Shown: piece after piece, positions 1 through 61,736 of the stretch | Layout: each line of letters opens with the position of its first letter | How positions within the stretch are numbered: position 1 is the stretch's first letter | IMG/VR virus record: IMGVR_UViG_2974716774_000001 | Span: 1-61,736 of that record | Length of the DNA stretch: 61,736 nt | Reading direction: 5' to 3' (one strand) | DNA from: Jacunavirus JC01 | Taxonomy: Duplodnaviria; Heunggongvirae; Uroviricota; Caudoviricetes; Casjensviridae | The notes under the pieces: model-generated | What the model saw: the letters and a program-made list of their open reading frames with translations, nothing else | Database searches by the model: none | What the model was told of the DNA's origin: nothing | Program-made: the position numbers and the translations under genes

Positions 1-12
1 GGTGCGCAGAGC
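1..12. repeat. Terminal 12-bp direct repeat GGTGCGCAGAGC, left copy (putative cohesive end)
   Basis: Bases 1-12 are identical to bases 61725-61736; a lambda-gpA-like large terminase is encoded at 10651-12723. Confidence 0.6.
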
Positions 13-19442: not shown

Positions 19443-20585
19443 ATGCCTAACTATCAACCGAATTATGTGGTCGGCCGCGGTAGCCTGTATTTCAACAAGT
19501 TTAAGAAAAACTCGAATACCCCGGAAACCGGCGAACTGTATTTCGGCAACACGCCGGAGTTCACCATTACCTCTGACTCAGAAACGCTTGACCACTACTC
19601 TTCGGAGCAGGGTATGCGTAACCTCGATGCGCGCGTGATGCTGGAATACACCCCGGGTGGCAGCTTCACCTGTGATGAAATCAACGCGGATAACCTGGCG
19701 CTGCATTTCCTCGGTGAAAACACCAATATCACCCAGCTGCAGATGACAGACCGCAAAGAGATCATCCCGGTACTGAAGCGTGCTCGCTACTATCAGCTGG
19801 GCATTGATGACGTCACCCCGAGCGGCGTGCGTAACATCAACAACCTGCAGATCGTGGTGGCCAGCGTCGATTCGTCCATCTCTCTGGGCGCAGGCGACGT
19901 GACCAGCATCCCCGGCGCTACCGTGCTTCCGGCGGACAACTACGAAGTGGATCTGGCCAACGGCCGCATCTACATCGAGCCGGACGCCTCGGCTGTCGGC
20001 GCGGAAGGTATGCAGGCGGCGGTGCAGTACGACGTTGACCCGCAGGTGCGAAATATGGTCATCGGCAAAGCGGACATGATTTATGGCTCGCTGCGCTTCA
20101 TCTCCGACAACCCGGTCGGCGGGAACAAGGATTACTTCTTCCCGAAAGTGGCGCTGACGCCGGATGGCGATTATGCTCTCAAAGGTGACGACTGGCAGGT
20201 GATGAGCTTCACCTTCAGCGCGATGAAGCTGAACAGCCGGACGGCGTACATGTACATCGACGTGCGCAGTGGCACCGAGTCTGCGACTGAAGGTACCACC
20301 CGTACCATCACCGCTACCCCGGCGGCCACCAGCTCTACGGTGGGCACTGCAGTCAACGTGACGATTACGGTTCGCGATGGCAGCAACAACCTGGTGCAGA
20401 ACGAAGCCGTTACCCTGACCGCTAACAGCGGCTCAACGGTGACACCGGCCAGCGGCAGCACCAACGCCTCCGGCCAGCTGGTTGTGCAGCTGAACCGCGC
20501 TACGGCGGGCACGGGTACGGTGACGGCTACGCTTGACAGCGGCAAGTCAGTGACCTCGGCTCAGGTGACTTTCGCCGCGGCTTAA
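19443..20585 (+). CDS. Major tail protein with C-terminal Ig-like (Big_2-type) domain
   Basis: 380-aa ORF with RBS GGAGGG; C-terminal about 90 aa is Thr/Ser/Val-rich beta-strand-like (TITVRDGSNNLVQNEAVTLTANSG...) typical of Ig-like decorations; followed by a strong terminator. Confidence 0.7.
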   Translation: MPNYQPNYVVGRGSLYFNKFKKNSNTPETGELYFGNTPEFTITSDSETLDHYSSEQGMRNLDARVMLEYTPGGSFTCDEINADNLALHFLGENTNITQLQMTDRKEIIPVLKRARYYQLGIDDVTPSGVRNINNLQIVVASVDSSISLGAGDVTSIPGATVLPADNYEVDLANGRIYIEPDASAVGAEGMQAAVQYDVDPQVRNMVIGKADMIYGSLRFISDNPVGGNKDYFFPKVALTPDGDYALKGDDWQVMSFTFSAMKLNSRTAYMYIDVRSGTESATEGTTRTITATPAATSSTVGTAVNVTITVRDGSNNLVQNEAVTLTANSGSTVTPASGSTNASGQLVVQLNRATAGTGTVTATLDSGKSVTSAQVTFAAA

Positions 20586-20605
20586 AGCCGAAAGGAAAGC
20601 AAGCG

Positions 20606-20633
20606 AAGCGCCTACGGGCGCTTTTCTTGTTTT
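20606..20633 (+). terminator. Rho-independent terminator after the major tail gene
   Basis: Stem AAGCGCC / GGCGCTT, loop TACG, followed by TTTTCTTGTTTT. Confidence 0.6.
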
Positions 20634-20687
20634 AACGGCATGGCTTTGTGCTAAATTAGCGGTGTTTAGCAAACAGGAGCGTCTACC

Positions 20688-21143
20688 ATGTCATTAGCAG
20701 ATTTTCAACCTGAAACCCGTACCGTTAAAGTCAAGAACGTCACCTTCGAAGTCCGCGGCCTTTCCTTTGCCGACATCTCCAGCCTTATCCGCACGCACAT
20801 GGATGACCTCGAAGCGGTCTTCACCATGTACGAGCGCGAGGCGCAGGGGCTTAACTTCGGCAACTTGGCGATGGCCAGACTGGCCACTGCTCTCATCTCC
20901 GATGCGCCGGGCCTCGTTGCCCACATCATCGCGCTGGCCGCCGACTCTCCGGAGTTCGTCGACAAAGCCGCACGCCTTCCCGCCTTCACGCAGCTTGATG
21001 CACTGAAGAAAATCGGAGCGATGACCTTCGAAGAGGTCGGCGGTGTAAAAAAGCTGCTGGAGATGATCGTCGAGCTGGTGGAAAACCTTCAGCCAGAAAA
21101 AAGCGAGCAGCCGAAGCGGTCGTCTCCGTCCGGGAAAAAATAA
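20688..21143 (+). CDS. Tail assembly chaperone (gpG-like)
   Basis: 151-aa ORF directly upstream of the tape measure gene with RBS AGGAG; ends at GGG AAA AAA TAA. Confidence 0.6.
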   Translation: MSLADFQPETRTVKVKNVTFEVRGLSFADISSLIRTHMDDLEAVFTMYEREAQGLNFGNLAMARLATALISDAPGLVAHIIALAADSPEFVDKAARLPAFTQLDALKKIGAMTFEEVGGVKKLLEMIVELVENLQPEKSEQPKRSSPSGKK

Positions 21144-21382
21144 TCAACTACTACGATGGAATGCGGGAGCAGGTCAGTCTGCTCCTTTCCGAAGGCCACC
21201 CACACGCCCGGCGCTACCCACTGGCGACGCTGTGGCTGGAAGCACAAATCGTAATGCGCCGTCATAACCAAAGATTTGTCACCGAATCCCTGCTGATGCA
21301 GGGCTGTATCGGAACGATAATGAATGGGAAGAAAGGCTCTAAGCATTATCAGGACATGATAAGGAAACTTAGCGATGGCTAA
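20688..21382 (+). CDS. Tail assembly chaperone frameshift product (gpGT-like, predicted -1 frameshift near 21134-21140)
   Basis: The -1 frame is open from the slippery run GGGAAAAAA through 21382 and ends just inside the tape measure gene. Confidence 0.45.
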
Positions 21383-24300
21383 CAATTCATCCCGTGACGT
21401 CGAGCTTAATATCCGGGCGAGAGACTACAGCCAGAAAACGCTGAAGCAGGTAACAGATGCCATCAGCGACATGGCCAAAGCCCAGGATGCCCAGCGCCTT
21501 GCTGCCGAGCGCGGCGAAGTCACCGCCAAAGAGCTGGAGGCGAGCTACCGCAAGCTGGAGAGCGCCGGTCAGGCGCTGCTTAAGCTCAACTCACTGGTTG
21601 AAGTGTATAAGCGACAGACGGCCGCGCTGGAAGCCCAGCAGGTCAAGCTGGAGCAGACCGTCGAGAAGCAGAAGGAGCTGCAGGCCGCGTATGACGGCGC
21701 CGAGAAAGTAACGAAGCGTCAGGAGGCAGCACTGGCCCGCGCTAACCGCGCCGTGGAGAAAGCCACGCAAGGCCTGAGCGACCAGCAGGCTCGCGTATCC
21801 CGTGCGGCCGCGGAGCTGGACAAATACGGCATCTCCACCAACGAGCTGGCCCGGAGCCAGCAGACCATCGTGGCCAACGTCGGGCGCGTTAACGCGGTGC
21901 TGGAGCGCCAGGACAACATTATCCAGCGCGTGCCTGAGGCAGTGAGGAAATACAATCAGGCGTGGGATGAGGCGATCGCGACAAACAACCGTCTCGATAC
22001 GGCGCGCCTGGAAAAATATAACCGCGCGTGGGATGAGGCGATCGCCATCAACAACCGCATGGACGCCGCCGCCAAGCTGACGCAGCAGCGCCTCGAAGAG
22101 CAGGCTTACGCGATCGATAAGGTTATCACAGGCCTGCGGCGCCAGGCGGATGAGGCCATCGCAGCATCGCGCGGCTACCAGACTCTCGGCCGTGTGGTGG
22201 CAGCGACGAACCTGAGCACCGGCGGCCGTCTGGCCACTGACCTGCAGGCCATCGTTACGCCAGCGCAGGCGGCGCGTTCTACTCTGGGCGGGCTGGAGAA
22301 ACAGGTCGACTCGCTCTCCCGGGAAATTGAGGCGGGTGGGAAAAACATCGAGGGCGCAGCCCAGAAGCTGAAAGACCTGCAGGCCGCGCAGCAGGCGGCA
22401 ATCGGCATGGCCCGTCTTATTGACCAGTTCCGGGCACAGACGACTGCCGTGCGTACCGCGCGTGCGGAGTTTCAGGCAGCACGCGCCGACGTCATGCAGC
22501 TGGCCGAGCGTATGCGTGCCGCACAGGCTGACACCGAGGGTCTGGGTCGTGAGATGCAGGCGGCGCAGCAGCGCCTTAATGCCGCGACGCAGGCACTGCG
22601 CACTACCGGCGCGGCAGCGCGACAGACGCAGGCGGCGCTACGGTCAGCCGGTGTCGACACCCGAACGCTGGGCACTGAATCCGATCGCCTGCGCACTACC
22701 GCACAGCGTACGACGACGGCCGTCGATGGGCTGGCGGGCGCAGTTCGTCGCAGCGGGGAGGCAGCACGCGACGGCGCGAAGGCATTCTCCTTCTTCACGG
22801 ACAGCGGCCGTACCACGCTGTCGGCCACACAGCGCCTCAAAGGTGAGATTCTGGCGCTGACCACGACGTACATTGGCTTCCAGGGCGCTATCAACCTGGC
22901 GGGCGGCGCGGTGGATGCGTTCAAGACCCGGCAGCAGGCGCTCATCAAGATCTCGCAGGTCGTCGGCAAAGACCAGAACCGTCTCAACGCCGAGTGGGAG
23001 TACATGGAGGGTCTGGCCAACCGGCTCGGTGTCAAGATTGAGGACGTGGCCCAGGGATACACCTCATTCGCCGTGGCGGCCAAAGCGACAGGCCTCAGCC
23101 TGCAGCAGACGAAGTACGTGTTCGAGAGCATCACCAAAACCGGCCGCGTGTTCCACCTGTCGGCCGATGACATGCAGGGCGTGTTCCGCGCCATGCAGCA
23201 GATGCTGTCGAAGGGTCAGGTCTATGCGGAAGAGCTTACCGGCCAGCTGGGCGAACGTCTCCCGGCGGCGGTGGCGTTGTTCGCTAAAGGCATGGACATG
23301 ACCACGCAGGAGCTGCTGAAGGCGATGCAGAACGGCGAGATCAGCTCGCAGGCCGTCATCAACTTCGCACGCGCCAACGCCAAAGCTATCGACGCCGAAA
23401 TCGAGACCGCCAGCAAAGGCGTGGATGCGATGGAAGCGCGCGCCCAGAATGCCATGTTTAACTTCAAACTGGCGATGGCGGACTCCGGCTTCATCGAGGC
23501 GTACGTCAGGATGCTGGAGCGCCTGACCGAGTTCCTGAACAGCCCTGACGGTGCAGAGGCCGCGAAGAAATTCGGTGATGCTTTCTCCAAAGCCGCAGAC
23601 GCGATCATCTGGTGCGTTGACAACATCGACATTCTGATTAACGCGCTGACCGTTTTCGCAGGCCTGAAGGCGGTGCAGTATGTCGCGGGTCTCGTGCAGG
23701 GGCTGCGCAAGCTGGCGCCGCTGTTCGCGCAGATCGGCAAAATCGGCGATGGCATCCTGTCGTTCTTCAGCAAATTCGCAGCGCGCCTGGCGACAGGCAC
23801 CGGCGCAGTGAAAGGCCTGGGCATCGCGCTTGGCGGGCTGGTGCGCGCCATACCGTACGTGGGCTGGGCGCTGCTGGCCTATGACATCGGGGCCATCTTC
23901 TATGAGCAGTCGCAGACATTCGCCAAAGCGGTCGACGAGGTTATCCGCGACTTCAAGAACCTCGGCAATCAGCTTATCGCACTGGCGGAGACACCGGTGG
24001 CAGCGCTGCGGGATCTGGCGTATGCCATCGTGCGGCCTATCACCACGCTCTTCTCTACCAGCATCACGGCTATCGCGAACTGGATAGCGGATGTCGTCAG
24101 CCTGATCCCGGGCGTTGGTGAAGACCTGGCCAAGTGGACGCGAGACGTGGCGAAGGAGCTGACCAAGCAAAACCGTGACATGTTCCAGAACGTGTCCGGC
24201 ATCTGGGATGACGTCAATGACAAATGGGCCAAGATGAATGACGACATCACCAAAAAATACAGCCAGACGATGAGCGAGGTCGTTCGTCAGACGCTGGCCG

Positions 24301-25883
24301 CTAAAGCCAAAATGCTGCAGACGGATCTCAGCGCGGCGATGGGCTTCCAGTTCACCGAAGACCCGGGCGGCGGGATCAGCAAGCGTGACCGTGAGGTGCA
24401 GGCGCTGACCAAAGAGTTTGAAAAACTGCAGAAGTCCGCCGACAAAGCGAAGAAGTCGGCCAAAGAAGCACTGATGCGTAAAAACCTGCCGGGCCGCCTG
24501 GCGCTGGTCGACGAAGAGTTCGCACCGCAGCTCGCCAGGGCGAAAGCGCTCGGCGGCGATGAAGGGGCCAAGCTGACCAAACAGCTGCAGGGCATCATCG
24601 CTATCCGTAAGCAGGCCGAGACCGACGAGTACAACGCGTCACAGCGTAGTTCGTCCGGCATCGACAAGCGAGCACGCGCGTTGGAGAACCTGACGCAGAA
24701 ATACAAAGAGCTGAAAGACTCTATCCAGCTCAAAGAGGTGCAGCAGGATCCGACGTCTTCGCTGGCTGACCGCACCGCGGCTGCTGTGCAGAAAGCTAAC
24801 ACCGAGATGGATAAATATATCCGTCAGGCTAATAAGCTCGGTGGCGCGGAAGGCAAAGCACTCTCCGACCAGTTTACTGCCCTGAAGACGGTTAACGAGC
24901 AGTACATCACCCAGAAGATGCAGCTGGAGGAAGTGGAGCGCCTGGAGAACAAGGTCAACAATCTGCTGGCCATCCGTAAGTCGCGGATTGAGGAAATCAA
25001 CGCCAAACGTGAAGCGGGCGTTATCAACGAAGACCAGCAGGTCGCAGGCGTCAATCAGGTCAATCAGGAAACGCAGGGGCCGCTTAATGCCGCTCTGGGC
25101 CAGCTGCAAAGCGCGGGGTCACAGGCGCAAAGCATCATGGGGCCGGAGGCATGGGCGCAGCTCCAGGCGAACATCGCTGCGGCAAAAGCCAGTATGCTTG
25201 ACCTGACAGGTACTTTCACCACGATGGACTCTACCGTCGTTAAAGGTGTTCTCGGCGGCTTTGAAGCGGCGATGGACTCTATCTATGACAGCATGGTACA
25301 GCTCATCCGCGGCACGCAGTCTCTCAGTGACGCGTTTTCGAACCTGGGCGTGGCAGTGGCCAAGTTCTTCGCCGACTTCCTGCGTCAAATCGCAATGGCC
25401 ATCCTTCAGCAGATGGTGCTCAATGCGCTTGCGGGAATGGGAGGCGGTATCGGCGCGGCGGCGCAGGCAGCGGGCGGCGTGGCCAAAGGTGCGGCCAAGC
25501 ACAACGGTGGTATCATCGGCAGCTCGACGACCGGAGGTATGCAGACACGTCAGATGCAGACGTCGTGGTTTGCCAACGCTCCGCGCTTCCACACCGGCGG
25601 GCTGCCCGGCCTGAAGTCAGACGAGGTACCAGCCATTCTGCAGAAAGGCGAGCAGGTGCTGTCCAAAGATGACCCGAACAACATCCTGAACCAGCAGCGG
25701 TCTACGTCAGGCGGTGCTGCGTCGCCGCAGATGAATCGCTTCGTGCTGGTGGACGACCGCACCAAGATCCCCGAGGCCATGAACAGCCAGGAAGGGGAGC
25801 AGGTATTCGTGCAGTTCCTTCAGCGCAACGCCGCGACAGTCCGGCAGATTGCGTCACGTAAAACGAGCGGGAGAAACGGATAA
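21375..25883 (+). CDS. Tail tape measure protein
   Basis: 1502-aa ORF, N-terminal coiled-coil-like Ala/Gln/Arg-rich region, central hydrophobic Gly/Ala-rich region; located after the chaperone pair. Confidence 0.85.
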   Translation: MANNSSRDVELNIRARDYSQKTLKQVTDAISDMAKAQDAQRLAAERGEVTAKELEASYRKLESAGQALLKLNSLVEVYKRQTAALEAQQVKLEQTVEKQKELQAAYDGAEKVTKRQEAALARANRAVEKATQGLSDQQARVSRAAAELDKYGISTNELARSQQTIVANVGRVNAVLERQDNIIQRVPEAVRKYNQAWDEAIATNNRLDTARLEKYNRAWDEAIAINNRMDAAAKLTQQRLEEQAYAIDKVITGLRRQADEAIAASRGYQTLGRVVAATNLSTGGRLATDLQAIVTPAQAARSTLGGLEKQVDSLSREIEAGGKNIEGAAQKLKDLQAAQQAAIGMARLIDQFRAQTTAVRTARAEFQAARADVMQLAERMRAAQADTEGLGREMQAAQQRLNAATQALRTTGAAARQTQAALRSAGVDTRTLGTESDRLRTTAQRTTTAVDGLAGAVRRSGEAARDGAKAFSFFTDSGRTTLSATQRLKGEILALTTTYIGFQGAINLAGGAVDAFKTRQQALIKISQVVGKDQNRLNAEWEYMEGLANRLGVKIEDVAQGYTSFAVAAKATGLSLQQTKYVFESITKTGRVFHLSADDMQGVFRAMQQMLSKGQVYAEELTGQLGERLPAAVALFAKGMDMTTQELLKAMQNGEISSQAVINFARANAKAIDAEIETASKGVDAMEARAQNAMFNFKLAMADSGFIEAYVRMLERLTEFLNSPDGAEAAKKFGDAFSKAADAIIWCVDNIDILINALTVFAGLKAVQYVAGLVQGLRKLAPLFAQIGKIGDGILSFFSKFAARLATGTGAVKGLGIALGGLVRAIPYVGWALLAYDIGAIFYEQSQTFAKAVDEVIRDFKNLGNQLIALAETPVAALRDLAYAIVRPITTLFSTSITAIANWIADVVSLIPGVGEDLAKWTRDVAKELTKQNRDMFQNVSGIWDDVNDKWAKMNDDITKKYSQTMSEVVRQTLAAKAKMLQTDLSAAMGFQFTEDPGGGISKRDREVQALTKEFEKLQKSADKAKKSAKEALMRKNLPGRLALVDEEFAPQLARAKALGGDEGAKLTKQLQGIIAIRKQAETDEYNASQRSSSGIDKRARALENLTQKYKELKDSIQLKEVQQDPTSSLADRTAAAVQKANTEMDKYIRQANKLGGAEGKALSDQFTALKTVNEQYITQKMQLEEVERLENKVNNLLAIRKSRIEEINAKREAGVINEDQQVAGVNQVNQETQGPLNAALGQLQSAGSQAQSIMGPEAWAQLQANIAAAKASMLDLTGTFTTMDSTVVKGVLGGFEAAMDSIYDSMVQLIRGTQSLSDAFSNLGVAVAKFFADFLRQIAMAILQQMVLNALAGMGGGIGAAAQAAGGVAKGAAKHNGGIIGSSTTGGMQTRQMQTSWFANAPRFHTGGLPGLKSDEVPAILQKGEQVLSKDDPNNILNQQRSTSGGAASPQMNRFVLVDDRTKIPEAMNSQEGEQVFVQFLQRNAATVRQIASRKTSGRNG

Positions 25884-46490: not shown

Positions 46491-46864
46491 TTGTATCCCC
46501 ATGATTTAACAATGTGAATCACCCGGCGGCACTGCTTGATGCTGAAGTGTCCAATGTGGCAGCGGCCCACGGAAATGCGCATGGCGCGGGCCAGCATCCT
46601 GTATGCAACGTCGCGGGAGTGCCTGCCATTGCGCCACACCTGGTCGAACAGGCGGTGCGCTTCGCTCCTGACGGCGCGCAGGTTTTTATTGGCCAGCGTT
46701 CCCATTGGGGCTTCTGTTCCCCTGTGGCAGCCGACATAGGCGTCACATGGCACGCAACGCCAGAACTTCTTGTCGGCGAGGTCTTCGCGGTGCGGATACA
46801 GGTCTGTGCCGCTGGCCAGCTCCGCAGGTTTTCCGCAGTATGTACATTTAACTTGAGATGGCAT
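46487..46864 (-). CDS. Zinc-finger protein (phage-associated CxxC...CxxC)
   Basis: 125-aa ORF; Cys pairs CTYCGKP and CVPCDAYVGCH. Confidence 0.45.
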   Translation of the reverse strand: MPSQVKCTYCGKPAELASGTDLYPHREDLADKKFWRCVPCDAYVGCHRGTEAPMGTLANKNLRAVRSEAHRLFDQVWRNGRHSRDVAYRMLARAMRISVGRCHIGHFSIKQCRRVIHIVKSWGYK

Positions 46865-46890
46865 TAAACTGCTCCCATGCTAATCGGTTT

Positions 46891-47931
46891 CTATAAATCG
46901 CTTCGTTCAGTCTCATAAGCTGCGATAACAGTTGCGCTGACGAACCGGGCAGCGATTTGAGGTACGATGGCGTTACCATATCCTTTGAGTAGCCCCACGC
47001 GGCCGGGTACCCCATGAGCCAGCGGGAATGTTCCGGGTTCAACGGGCCTGAAGCATCCATCCCGGCAGAAGAGCCAGTCAGCACTTCCCCAGTCTCCGTG
47101 ATCCGCACTGGGCAATCCGGCATAACCAGCTGCGCGGCAACGTCCAGTCTGTCCACTGACAGTTTGCCGTTGCGTATCCGTCCTCCCTGATAGCCGCCCT
47201 TGTGATCCGTCGCGCTCGATGTTGGCCATATCGCCAGCTTCGCCTCCCCGCCCAGCTTCAGGATTTTCCGGCCCGCCGATGTGCTGTAGTCGCTGCCCTT
47301 CGCATCGTTCGCTATCGCCGTATGCCAGCTGGTCATCTTCGCCTGCTGCGCCAGCGAGCTGCCCGTCATGTTGGCCGTGATGCCCGACCAACCGCGCCGC
47401 CCGTCCGAGTGACTCGGTGTCGTCCAGGCGAAAGGCCGCGAAAAATAATCGGTCGCGTTTGTGCGGAGCGCCGACGCCTGCAGCTGGCAGTACATGCGCT
47501 GCGCAGGCGTAACCTTCCTCTTCCAGCTCAATGAGTAAAGCGTCAAGCCAGTGGTCTTTTTTAACTGCCGCTGCAACCTGCTCGCCGAAGAGCATTGGAG
47601 GACGACACTCTGCGATGAGATCGAGAAGGGCCGGAGCCAAGTGACGTGAATCTCTTGCCCCGAGGCCTGCTCCAGCCACGCTGAAAGGCTGGCACGGAGG
47701 ACTACCCGTCCACAGCGGGAGATCGTCCGGGAGCCCGGCGAGTCGCAGGGCAAGCGGCCATCCGGCGATGCCTGCGAAGAAGTGGCACTGGGTGAAGCCA
47801 CGGAGGTCTTGTGGTCTGACATCTAAAATGCTCCGCGTGTCTACGATGCCCATCGGGATAAGCCCGGCGTCAATGAGAAGCCGCAGCCTTTCAGCTGCGA
47901 CCGGATCGTACTCGTTATAGTAATTCATCAC
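46891..47931 (-). CDS. DNA cytosine-5 methyltransferase, reading frame apparently interrupted by two frameshifts
   Basis: Frame A (46891-47931) carries motif I (FFAGIAGW), motif IV (GSPPCQPFSVAG), motif VIII (HKRDRLFF) and C-terminal motif X (GNAIVPQIAARF); the target-recognition region and motif IX (RWLMGYP) are in the overlapping +1 frame (ORF 46848-47822). Confidence 0.55.
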   Translation of the reverse strand: MMNYYNEYDPVAAERLRLLIDAGLIPMGIVDTRSILDVRPQDLRGFTQCHFFAGIAGWPLALRLAGLPDDLPLWTGSPPCQPFSVAGAGLGARDSRHLAPALLDLIAECRPPMLFGEQVAAAVKKDHWLDALLIELEEEGYACAAHVLPAAGVGAPHKRDRLFFAAFRLDDTESLGRAARLVGHHGQHDGQLAGAAGEDDQLAYGDSERCEGQRLQHIGGPENPEAGRGGEAGDMANIERDGSQGRLSGRTDTQRQTVSGQTGRCRAAGYAGLPSADHGDWGSADWLFCRDGCFRPVEPGTFPLAHGVPGRVGLLKGYGNAIVPQIAARFVSATVIAAYETERSDL

Positions 47932-61724: not shown

Positions 61725-61736
61725 GGTGCGCAGAGC
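61725..61736. repeat. Terminal 12-bp direct repeat GGTGCGCAGAGC, right copy (putative cohesive end)
   Basis: Exact copy of bases 1-12 at the last 12 positions of the window. Confidence 0.6.

What the first reader, a model, noticed from the sequence alone, without database searches (positions are those of the whole stretch)
21120..21382. Probable programmed -1 frameshift in the tail assembly chaperone
The gpG-like gene ends TCC GGG AAA AAA TAA. The -1 frame is open across this site and continues 81 codons to 21382, ending just inside the tape measure gene. Slippage on GAAAAAA (21134-21140) would give a fusion product of about 231 aa, the conserved arrangement in long-tailed phages. The heptamer is not the canonical X-XXY-YYZ.
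Basis: partly seen in the sequence, partly recalled or inferred. Interest (0 to 1): 0.4.

Follow-up and report, generated by a model that had tools for sequence, protein, structure and literature searches.

The report
Tail chaperone frameshift, slip site relocated

Summary
The window is the complete 61,736-bp genome of Cronobacter phage JC01, a chi-like siphophage (Casjensviridae).

The proposed slip site (21134-21140) is not the supported one. The -1 frame is already open from 20999.

Evidence from 23 non-redundant relatives (28-73% G identity):
- 20 have a canonical heptamer at the homologous position.
- The preceding codon ends in A in 21, against 11% third-position A genome-wide.
- The -1 frame has 0 stops in 580 codons between heptamer and G stop (about 24 expected).
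- GAGG lies exactly 10 nt upstream in 17, as in E. coli dnaX.
- A -1-frame motif [ST]-x-[RK]-E-[KR] is conserved just upstream of the G stop.
- A terminal A-run occurs in only 4.

Deposited fusions for Chi, PibeRecoleta and Soft switch frame at the heptamer; Seifer's switches at the G terminus.

Verdict: a known kind of feature, with the slip site corrected. Low interest.

The parts
20688..21143 (+). Gene G: tail assembly chaperone ('pre-tape measure' protein), 151 aa, 16.5 kDa, zero-frame product
   Evidence: ORF. Pfam PF23789 4e-55. phrog_5260 4.5e-42. 100% identical to the protein named 'pre-tape measure frameshift protein [Cronobacter phage JC01]'. Lies between the Ig-domain major tail gene 19443-20585 and the tape-measure gene.
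21033..21036 (+). Internal Shine-Dalgarno-like GAGG, 10 nt 5' of the slippery heptamer (putative 5' stimulator)
   Evidence: Sequence. GAGG or GGAGG lies at exactly 10 nt in 17 of 23 non-redundant loci, always with Glu as GAG. dnaX has its internal SD 10 nt 5' of the shift site (PMC5009743). The stimulatory function is inferred.
21047..21053 (+). Slippery heptamer A_AAA_AAG, in register with G (GTA AAA AAG, codons 120-122): the best-supported -1 shift site
   Evidence: Canonical heptamer at the homologous column in 20 of 23 non-redundant loci. Variants are A_AAA_AAA, A_AAA_AAC and C_CCA_AAA (one codon off); the two outliers have CGA_AAG or CGA_AAA. Chi, PibeRecoleta and Soft fusions switch frame here. 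The fusion built on this site scores best against phrog_11703: 257 against 249.6 and 245.1 bits.
21054..21133 (+). Predicted long hairpin 3' of the heptamer (main stem about 21058-21072 with 21114-21128); possible 3' stimulator, lineage-specific
   Evidence: -31.4 kcal/mol, z = -2.41, 5 of 200 shuffles as stable. Similar closing stems appear only in the two nearest relatives, L030 and L031. RNAalifold finds no consensus pairs in 12 clade members. No Rfam family reaches threshold.
21053..21382 (+). -1 frame part of GT: 109 codons plus stop. Linker about 21053-21124, then the T domain. The GT product is G1-122 plus this, 231 aa, 25.5 kDa, pI 9.4
   Evidence: Translation. phrog_11703 full-length match 3.5e-76. 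AlphaFold2 gives a confident G domain (1-117) and T domain (148-229), with residues 118-142 at pLDDT below 50. The T ORF has no conserved start codon in relatives.
21053..21140 (+). Dual-coding overlap: the zero frame encodes the G-only C-terminal tail (LLEMIVELVENL...GKK), the -1 frame encodes the GT linker
   Evidence: -1 frame: 0 stops in 580 codons across 23 loci, against 4.1% per codon upstream and 53 stops in 557 codons of the +1 frame. The zero-frame pattern KK[LM][LF]xxxMxL is conserved. The -1 frame S-x-R-E-K is conserved at 21125-21139.
21134..21140 (+).
   Evidence: Non-canonical. An A-run of 5 or more abutting the stop occurs in only 4 of 23 loci. The run is explained by the conserved -1 frame codons CGG GAA AAA (R-E-K). 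Minor use cannot be excluded.
21375..25883 (+). Tape measure protein gene (1502 aa); its start overlaps the GT stop by 8 nt
   Evidence: ORF. phrog_2335 E = 0 and Pfam TMP_3 1e-26.
20605..20634 (+). Terminator-like hairpin plus T-run between the major tail gene and G (context: would lower chaperone and tape-measure transcript levels)
   Evidence: A terminator is annotated at the same place in phages Seifer and Soft.

Best explanation
Gene G (20688-21143) and the downstream -1 ORF form the standard tail-assembly-chaperone G/GT pair of a long-tailed phage.

Most ribosomes read G to its TAA and make the 151-aa chaperone. A fraction slip back one base when the two Lys tRNAs sit on AAA-AAG of A_AAA_AAG (21047-21053) and re-pair on AAA-AAA. 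They then read GCT at 21053 and continue in the -1 frame to TAA 21380-21382. The product is the 231-aa GT: G residues 1-122, a disordered linker of about 25 aa, and an 85-aa helical T domain.

The cassette looks like E. coli dnaX: the same heptamer, a GAGG 10 nt upstream that could pair with 16S rRNA, and in JC01 a hairpin just downstream.

By analogy with lambda, G and the G part of GT coat the tape-measure protein, the T part recruits the major tail protein, and neither ends up in the virion.

Shown here: the ORF geometry, homology, conservation of the heptamer and its register, the selectively open -1 frame, and the domain and linker layout.

Inferred: that slippage actually occurs, its efficiency, the roles of the GAGG and the hairpin, and the assembly function.
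For: 1. Synteny and homology: major tail gene, G (PF23789, 4e-55), -1 ORF, tape-measure gene. Both halves match one 232-position fusion profile, phrog_11703.
2. In-register A_AAA_AAG at 21047-21053. Among 38 loci, 23 non-redundant at 28-73% G identity, a canonical heptamer sits at the homologous column in 20. L024 has C_CCA_AAA one codon off. L023 has CGA_AAG, a known shift motif (PMC5009743), and L021 has the related CGA_AAA.
3. Synonymous constraint: the preceding codon ends in A in 21 of 23 across Val, Ala, Leu, Ile and Pro. All 14 Val codons are GTA. JC01-wide, third-position A is 11% and GTA is 12% of Val codons.
4. -1 frame stops: 113 in 2778 codons upstream of the heptamer, 0 in 580 between heptamer and G stop (23.6 expected, naive P about 3e-11), and 53 in 557 in the +1 frame. 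In 10 of 23 loci a -1 stop lies within 5 codons upstream of the heptamer.
5. The -1 frame motif [ST]-x-[RK]-E-[KR] is conserved upstream of the G stop with TCN/AGC and CGN/AGR codon switches.
6. Deposited fusions of Chi (234 aa), PibeRecoleta (228 aa) and Soft switch frame right after the KK. AH2 is predicted at AAAAAAG (PMC3483164). Salvo has an annotated slippage point G_GGA_AAC 38 codons before its G stop.
7. A_AAA_AAG is the most shift-prone heptamer tested in E. coli and is the dnaX site; dnaX has an internal SD 10 nt 5' (PMC5009743). GAGG lies 10 nt upstream in 17 of 23 loci.
8. AlphaFold2: the low-confidence linker starts at residue 118, at the slip site. There is a weak fold match to N15 GT, E = 8.5e-3.
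Against: - There is no experimental evidence for this phage or, as far as I found, for any Casjensviridae member. All support is comparative.
- The slip site is 87 nt (29 codons) from the G stop, further than in lambda, so GT would lack the last 29 residues of G, including a conserved amphipathic stretch.
- The downstream hairpin is not conserved, and its z-score is modest.
- The Chi-like, Seifer-like and L019 lineages lack the GAGG.
- The GAGG overlaps conserved Glu-Val/Ala codons, so part of its conservation is protein-level.
- Distant members (RcMaeve, Ruegeria V16, Erwinia SNUABM08) have only GAA_AAG or GTA_AAG at this position.
- The statistics treat loci as independent although they are related.
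- One public record (Seifer) places the shift at the G terminus.
Confidence: 0.85

Rival explanations
1. One reading: the -1 shift happens at the last two Lys codons of G (G_AAA_AAA, 21134-21140). It would be helped by slow decoding of the adjacent TAA, and GT would contain all 151 residues of G.
For: An A6 run abuts the stop and tRNA-Lys can re-pair on AAA in the -1 frame. The product length is identical, 231 aa. The deposited Seifer fusion AYJ72806.1 uses the equivalent terminal position. In lambda the slip is near the end of G (PMC5009743).
Against: - The site is not X_XXY_YYZ.
- The terminal A-run is present in only 4 of 23 relatives. Chi ends GCG AAA TAG and others end TCT TAG or GGC TGA.
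- The A-run is accounted for by the conserved -1 frame R-E-K codons, which a terminal slip would not translate.
- The G stop floats and lies inside the T domain in L028.
- The model gives no reason for the -1 frame to stay stop-free for 580 codons upstream of the G stops.
- It scores lowest against the fusion profile: 245.1 against 257 bits.
Confidence: 0.07
2. There is no recoding: the downstream ORF is translated on its own from ATG 21161 as a 73-aa protein.
For: An ATG-started 73-aa ORF exists at 21161-21382. Gene callers and several GenBank records list separate small ORFs here in relatives.
Against: - Conservation in the -1 frame extends upstream of that ATG (REKIINYYDG) and upstream of the G stop.
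- The Met is not conserved, and the separately called ORFs in relatives start at different places (51, 65 and 74 aa).
- I saw no SD-like sequence before 21161 in the sequence.
- The fusion profile phrog_11703 spans both parts.
Confidence: 0.03
3. The frame change is made by RNA polymerase: transcriptional slippage on one of the A6 runs deletes or adds an A in a fraction of mRNAs.
For: Three A6 runs lie within 94 nt, at 21047, 21097 and 21135. Transcriptional slippage does produce alternative products in some bacterial and phage genes (PMC5009743).
Against: - From my own knowledge of the literature, productive slippage by bacterial RNA polymerase needs runs of about 8-9 or more A or T; six is short.
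- What is conserved is the register and the X_XXY_YYZ logic (A_AAA_AAC, C_CCA_AAA, G_GGA_AAC in Salvo), not run length.
- The GAGG at the ribosome-specific 10-nt spacing argues for a translational event.
Confidence: 0.03

Closest known systems
Phage lambda G/GT tail assembly chaperone frameshift (Xu, Hendrix & Duda 2004, as cited in PMC3483164; reviewed in PMC5009743)
   Same: Two overlapping ORFs sit between the major tail and tape-measure genes. A -1 slip on an X_XXY_YYZ heptamer makes a minor fusion protein. The N-terminal G part plus C-terminal T part logic is the same. There is a weak fold-level match to the lambda-like N15 GT.
   Different: There is no detectable sequence homology to lambda G or T. 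The heptamer is A_AAA_AAG, not lambda's G_GGA_AAG (recalled, not checked). The slip is 29 codons before the G stop rather than near its end, so GT lacks a conserved G-only C-terminal segment, and the 87-nt overlap is dual-coding.
E. coli dnaX -1 frameshift cassette (PMC5009743)
   Same: The heptamer A_AAA_AAG is identical. A Shine-Dalgarno-like element lies 10 nt 5' of it. A stem-loop is predicted just 3' of it in JC01.
   Different: It sits in a phage structural-gene context. The shift extends the protein instead of truncating it. The 3' structure is not conserved among relatives. Efficiency is unknown; dnaX is about 50%, whereas tail chaperones typically need a few per cent.
G-T genes of other Casjensviridae: Chi (P0003), PibeRecoleta (P0002), Klebsiella phage Soft, Burkholderia AH2 gp55/gp56, Xylella Salvo
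   Same: They are homologous proteins (31-64% G identity) with the same gene order. The slip is annotated or predicted at the homologous A_AAA_AAG. Salvo has G_GGA_AAC about 4 codons further on.
   Different: JC01 has no fusion CDS on record. It also has two extra A6 runs in the overlap, one of them a second in-register A_AAA_AAG for the -1 frame.
Klebsiella phage Seifer fusion annotation (AYJ72806.1)
   Same: The same gene pair.
   Different: Its sister phage Soft, with an identical heptamer and G terminus, is annotated at the upstream heptamer. In both phages the -1 frame opens only 2 codons before the heptamer, which fits the upstream site.

Membership tests
Tail assembly chaperone G/GT programmed -1 frameshift (long-tailed phages) | Two overlapping ORFs immediately upstream of the tape-measure gene and downstream of the major tail gene, the second in the -1 frame | tested here: met
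   Major tail gene 19443-20585, G 20688-21143, -1 ORF open 20999-21382, tape-measure gene 21375-25883.
Tail assembly chaperone G/GT programmed -1 frameshift (long-tailed phages) | A slippery sequence in register within the overlap | tested here: met
   A_AAA_AAG at 21047-21053, conserved in 20 of 23 non-redundant relatives.
Tail assembly chaperone G/GT programmed -1 frameshift (long-tailed phages) | The downstream ORF lacks its own conserved initiation signal and is conserved as a continuation of G | tested here: met
   -1 frame conservation runs upstream of the only ATG and of the G stop. The Met is not conserved. The fusion profile spans both parts.
Tail assembly chaperone G/GT programmed -1 frameshift (long-tailed phages) | Both G and GT proteins are made, in a skewed ratio, and are required for tail assembly but absent from virions | not testable with these tools
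   Needs proteomics or genetics. I found no such data for JC01 or chi-like phages in the papers I searched.
Pfam PF23789 Pre_tape_measure / PHROG 5260 and 11703 | Sequence match above the curated threshold | tested here: met
   186.1 bits against a cut-off of 27. phrog_11703 gives 257 bits full length for the fusion.
dnaX-type frameshift cassette | A_AAA_AAG heptamer in register | tested here: met
dnaX-type frameshift cassette | Internal Shine-Dalgarno-like sequence about 10 nt 5' of the heptamer | tested here: met
   GAGG at 21033-21036 with a 10-nt spacer. The same spacing holds in 17 of 23 loci. Function not tested.
dnaX-type frameshift cassette | Stimulatory stem-loop a few nt 3' of the heptamer | tested here: inconclusive
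   JC01 hairpin -31.4 kcal/mol, z = -2.41. No consensus structure or covariation in 12 relatives. No Rfam match.
   An A-run of 5 or more at the stop occurs in 4 of 23 loci. The termini are heterogeneous.
   0 stops in 580 -1 frame codons, and a conserved S-x-R-E-K motif with synonymous codon-family switches.

The most novel reading that the evidence does not exclude
JC01 may use more than one shift site in the 94-nt stretch that holds three A6 runs.
- The main A_AAA_AAG is at 21047.
- Some ribosomes may shift at the stop-adjacent G_AAA_AAA, giving a second GT isoform that keeps the whole of G.
- Ribosomes already in the -1 frame may slip again on the second in-register A_AAA_AAG at 21097-21103, entering a 54-codon dead-end frame and so trimming GT yield.

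Together with a dnaX-like SD and hairpin, this would make the G:GT ratio the outcome of several competing recoding events rather than one.
Probability: 0.08. Interest if true: 0.35.

Novelty: already known. Interest (0 to 1): 0.15.

Why it matters
The G/GT frameshift is one of the best-known cases of recoding. For JC01 the gene is already named after it, so nothing new about biology follows from this finding.

The practical value lies in annotation:
- JC01 has no fusion CDS on record.
- Public records of sister phages disagree on where the shift occurs (Seifer at the G terminus; Soft, Chi and PibeRecoleta at the heptamer).
- The comparative evidence here settles the site for the whole chi-like family.

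The correct site changes 29 residues of the predicted GT protein and removes a conserved G-only helix from it. That matters for structural or assembly work, and for engineering a phage proposed as a biocontrol agent against Cronobacter in infant formula.

Tried and rejected
- Megablast of the region against the phage collection found nothing; JC01 is absent from it.
- A single-protein scan of viral contigs found nothing. The alignment-based scan worked.
- A conserved 3' RNA structure was sought with RNAalifold on 12 clade members: no pairs.
- Rfam returned only chance-level hits.
- Sequence search of the PDB and Foldseek against the PDB gave nothing meaningful. This is probably because the model is two small helical domains joined by a floppy linker.
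- The middle A-run (21097-21102) as the primary site was rejected. It is out of register for the zero frame, is shared only with L030, and gives an intermediate profile score of 249.6 bits.
- The G_GGG_GGC/A heptamers 9 nt upstream in some relatives were rejected as general sites. They are absent from JC01 and most loci.
- The Seifer genome announcement says nothing about the frameshift.
- I first thought the cytosine methyltransferase gene was frameshifted. tblastn against the SEN5 methylase showed it is intact in one frame.

Full report
**Identity of the window.** The window begins and ends with GGTGCGCAGAGC and is 61,736 bp at 58.5% G+C. The 151-aa product of 20688-21143 is 100% identical to a protein on a 61,736-bp contig named [quoted passage not shown]. 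The JC01 paper (PMC9759504) reports the same genome length and the same 12-base ends. [quoted passage not shown] JC01 is not in the phage collection I could BLAST. Relatives place it in the chi-like family Casjensviridae.

**The observation.**
- G ends TCC GGG AAA AAA TAA, with the stop at 21141-21143.
- GAAAAAA lies at 21134-21140.
- The -1 frame passes the stop and ends at TAA 21380-21382, 8 nt into the tape-measure gene (ATG 21375).
- A -1 shift gives 231 aa.

Any -1 shift in that 47-codon overlap gives a 231-aa product, so length says nothing about the site. The overlap holds three A6 runs, at 21047, 21097 and 21135. Only the first is a canonical heptamer in register with G: GTA AAA AAG, that is A_AAA_AAG at 21047-21053. 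It lies outside the reported interval. An open -1 frame is not significant in itself in this genome. Homology is what shows the feature is real:
- G hits Pfam PF23789 at 4e-55.
- The extension hits the C-terminal third of phrog_11703, a 232-position profile of fusion proteins, at 2e-30, and G matches the first 129 positions of that profile.

**Which site?** I built the three possible fusions. The one shifted at 21047-21053 scores best against the fusion profile: 257 bits, against 249.6 for the middle run and 245.1 for the terminal run. I then collected 38 homologous loci, 23 of them non-redundant at 90% identity and spanning 28-73% G identity. Five lines of evidence follow.

1. *Heptamer conservation.*
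   - At the column homologous to JC01 Lys121-Lys122, 20 of 23 loci carry a canonical in-register heptamer: A_AAA_AAG, A_AAA_AAA or A_AAA_AAC.
   - L024 has C_CCA_AAA one codon off. L023 has CGA_AAG, a documented -1 motif used by IS1222 (PMC5009743). L021 has the related CGA_AAA.
   - The codon before the lysines ends in A in 21 of 23 loci, although it encodes Val, Ala, Leu, Ile or Pro. All 14 Val codons are GTA. In JC01, third-position A is 11% and GTA is 12% of Val codons.
   - An A-run of five or more abutting the G stop occurs in only 4 of 23 loci. Chi-type phages end GCG AAA TAG.
2. *Stop codons in the -1 frame.* Upstream of the heptamer the -1 frame has 113 stops in 2778 codons. Between the heptamer and the G stop it has none in 580 codons, where 23.6 are expected (naive P about 3e-11). 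The +1 frame over the same stretch has 53 stops in 557 codons. In 10 loci a -1 stop lies within five codons upstream of the heptamer. The homologous site was fixed by protein alignment, so this test is not circular. The loci are related, however, so the P value is only indicative.
3. *Protein-level selection on the -1 frame before the G stop.* Just upstream of the G stop the -1 frame encodes a conserved [ST]-x-[RK]-E-[KR] motif. Ser switches between TCN and AGC, Arg between CGN and AGR, and GAA is nearly invariant. This is protein-level selection on residues that a terminal slip would never translate. It also explains the terminal A-run as the codons CGG GAA AAA.
4. *Position of the G stop.* The G stop floats relative to the T domain, and in L028 it lies inside it.
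5. *Public annotation.*
   - The deposited fusions of Chi (234 aa) and PibeRecoleta (228 aa) change frame directly after the KK. So does Soft (exact match).
   - AH2 was predicted at AAAAAAG (PMC3483164; confirmed).
   - Salvo carries an annotated slippage point, G_GGA_AAC, 38 codons before its G stop.
   - Seifer's deposited fusion uses the G terminus. Its sequence around both sites is identical to Soft's, so the databases are inconsistent. Neither JC01 fusion is on record.

**Mechanism.** A_AAA_AAG is the most shift-prone heptamer tested in E. coli. The single tRNA-Lys pairs better with AAA than with AAG, and this is the dnaX site (PMC5009743). dnaX frameshifting is boosted by an internal Shine-Dalgarno sequence 10 nt 5' of the site and by a 3' stem-loop.
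- JC01 has GAGG at 21033-21036, exactly 10 nt upstream. GAGG or GGAGG sits at that spacing in 17 of 23 loci, including distant ones where the neighbouring amino acids differ. The Glu codon is always GAG, against 60% GAG genome-wide. Chi-like, Seifer-like and L019 lineages lack it.
- Downstream, JC01 folds into a long hairpin at 21054-21133 (-31.4 kcal/mol, z = -2.41). Only its two nearest relatives show a comparable stem, and there is no consensus structure in the clade. I treat the hairpin as possible and lineage-specific.

**Predicted products.** G is 151 aa (16.5 kDa, pI 5.5). GT is 231 aa (25.5 kDa, pI 9.4). An AlphaFold2 model built on 21 family fusions gives three regions:
- a confident G domain, residues 1-117;
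- a confident helical T domain, residues 148-229;
- a low-confidence stretch at 118-142, which begins at the slip site.

The 87-nt overlap therefore divides the work between the two frames. The zero frame encodes a conserved G-only amphipathic tail (KK[LM][LF]xxxMxL). The -1 frame encodes a composition-tolerant linker and becomes conserved only as the T domain approaches. This differs from lambda, where GT contains almost all of G. The assembly role (G on the tape measure, T recruiting the major tail protein, neither in the virion) is inferred from lambda (PMC5009743). The only support from this work is a weak fold match to N15 GT (E = 8.5e-3).

**Rivals.**
- A terminal slip as the main event is disfavoured by all five lines above, but minor use cannot be excluded.
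- Independent initiation at ATG 21161 is unlikely. Conservation runs upstream of it, and the Met is not conserved.
- Transcriptional slippage is unlikely. The run is only six A's, and what is conserved is register and X_XXY_YYZ logic rather than run length. The run-length threshold rests on my own knowledge, not on a tool result.

**Limits.** There is no experimental evidence for this phage or family. At greater distance (RcMaeve, Ruegeria V16, Erwinia SNUABM08) only GAA_AAG or GTA_AAG is found at this position, so the heptamer is not universal.

**Verdict.** This is a real, ordinary and already-named feature. Interest is low. The useful outcome is a corrected slip site (21047-21053) and the note that public annotations of this family disagree.

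Noticed in passing
window 46848-47931, minus strand: The cytosine-5 DNA methyltransferase gene (46891-47931, intact; phrog_363 2e-72; collinear with the SEN5 methylase) contains a fully nested 324-codon ORF in its +1 frame (46848-47822). That ORF hits its own PHROG families (phrog_31772 at 1e-37, phrog_1008 at 3e-25). It has methylase-like motifs (WTTPSHSD, WPTSSATDHKGG, LMGYPAAW). In phage K1ind2 it is annotated as a separate overlapping 'Mte8-like protein'. Whether this is an overprinted gene or a gene-calling ambiguity is not resolved.
   Followed up: partly
window 21097-21103: A second A_AAA_AAG (AGA AAA AAG) is in register for the -1 frame. Ribosomes that have already shifted could shift again into a 54-codon dead-end frame. 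It is shared only with the closest relative, L030, so it is probably incidental.
   Followed up: partly
L001 (Seifer) and L004 (Soft), 1501-2198: Two sister Klebsiella phages have identical slip-site and G-terminus sequences but different deposited fusion proteins. Seifer AYJ72806.1 shifts at the G terminus; Soft QEM42182.1 shifts at A_AAA_AAG.
   Followed up: yes
window 20605-20634: A terminator-like hairpin (GAAGCGCC-TACG-GGCGCTTT) plus a T-run lies between the major tail gene and G. A terminator is annotated at the same place in Seifer and Soft. It would lower chaperone and tape-measure transcription relative to the tube protein.
   Followed up: partly
L020 1860-1880 (IMGVR_UViG_2974570458_000001): In this Chi-like genome, G is cut short at the slippery site (GTG AAG AAG TAA AAA G) by small indels relative to Chi, leaving a 124-aa G. 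This is either a sequencing error in the A-run or a natural frameshift mutant.
   Followed up: no
L005, L008, L032, L033, L035: 9 nt upstream of the A_AAA_AAG: Several JC01-clade relatives carry an extra in-register G_GGG_GGA or G_GGG_GGC heptamer from the Gly-Gly codons, directly before the A_AAA_AAG. JC01 itself has GGC GGT there.
   Followed up: no
window 1-12 and 61725-61736: The same 12 bases, GGTGCGCAGAGC, occur at both ends, as reported for chi-like cohesive ends. The window is therefore the whole deposited genome of Cronobacter phage JC01.
   Followed up: yes
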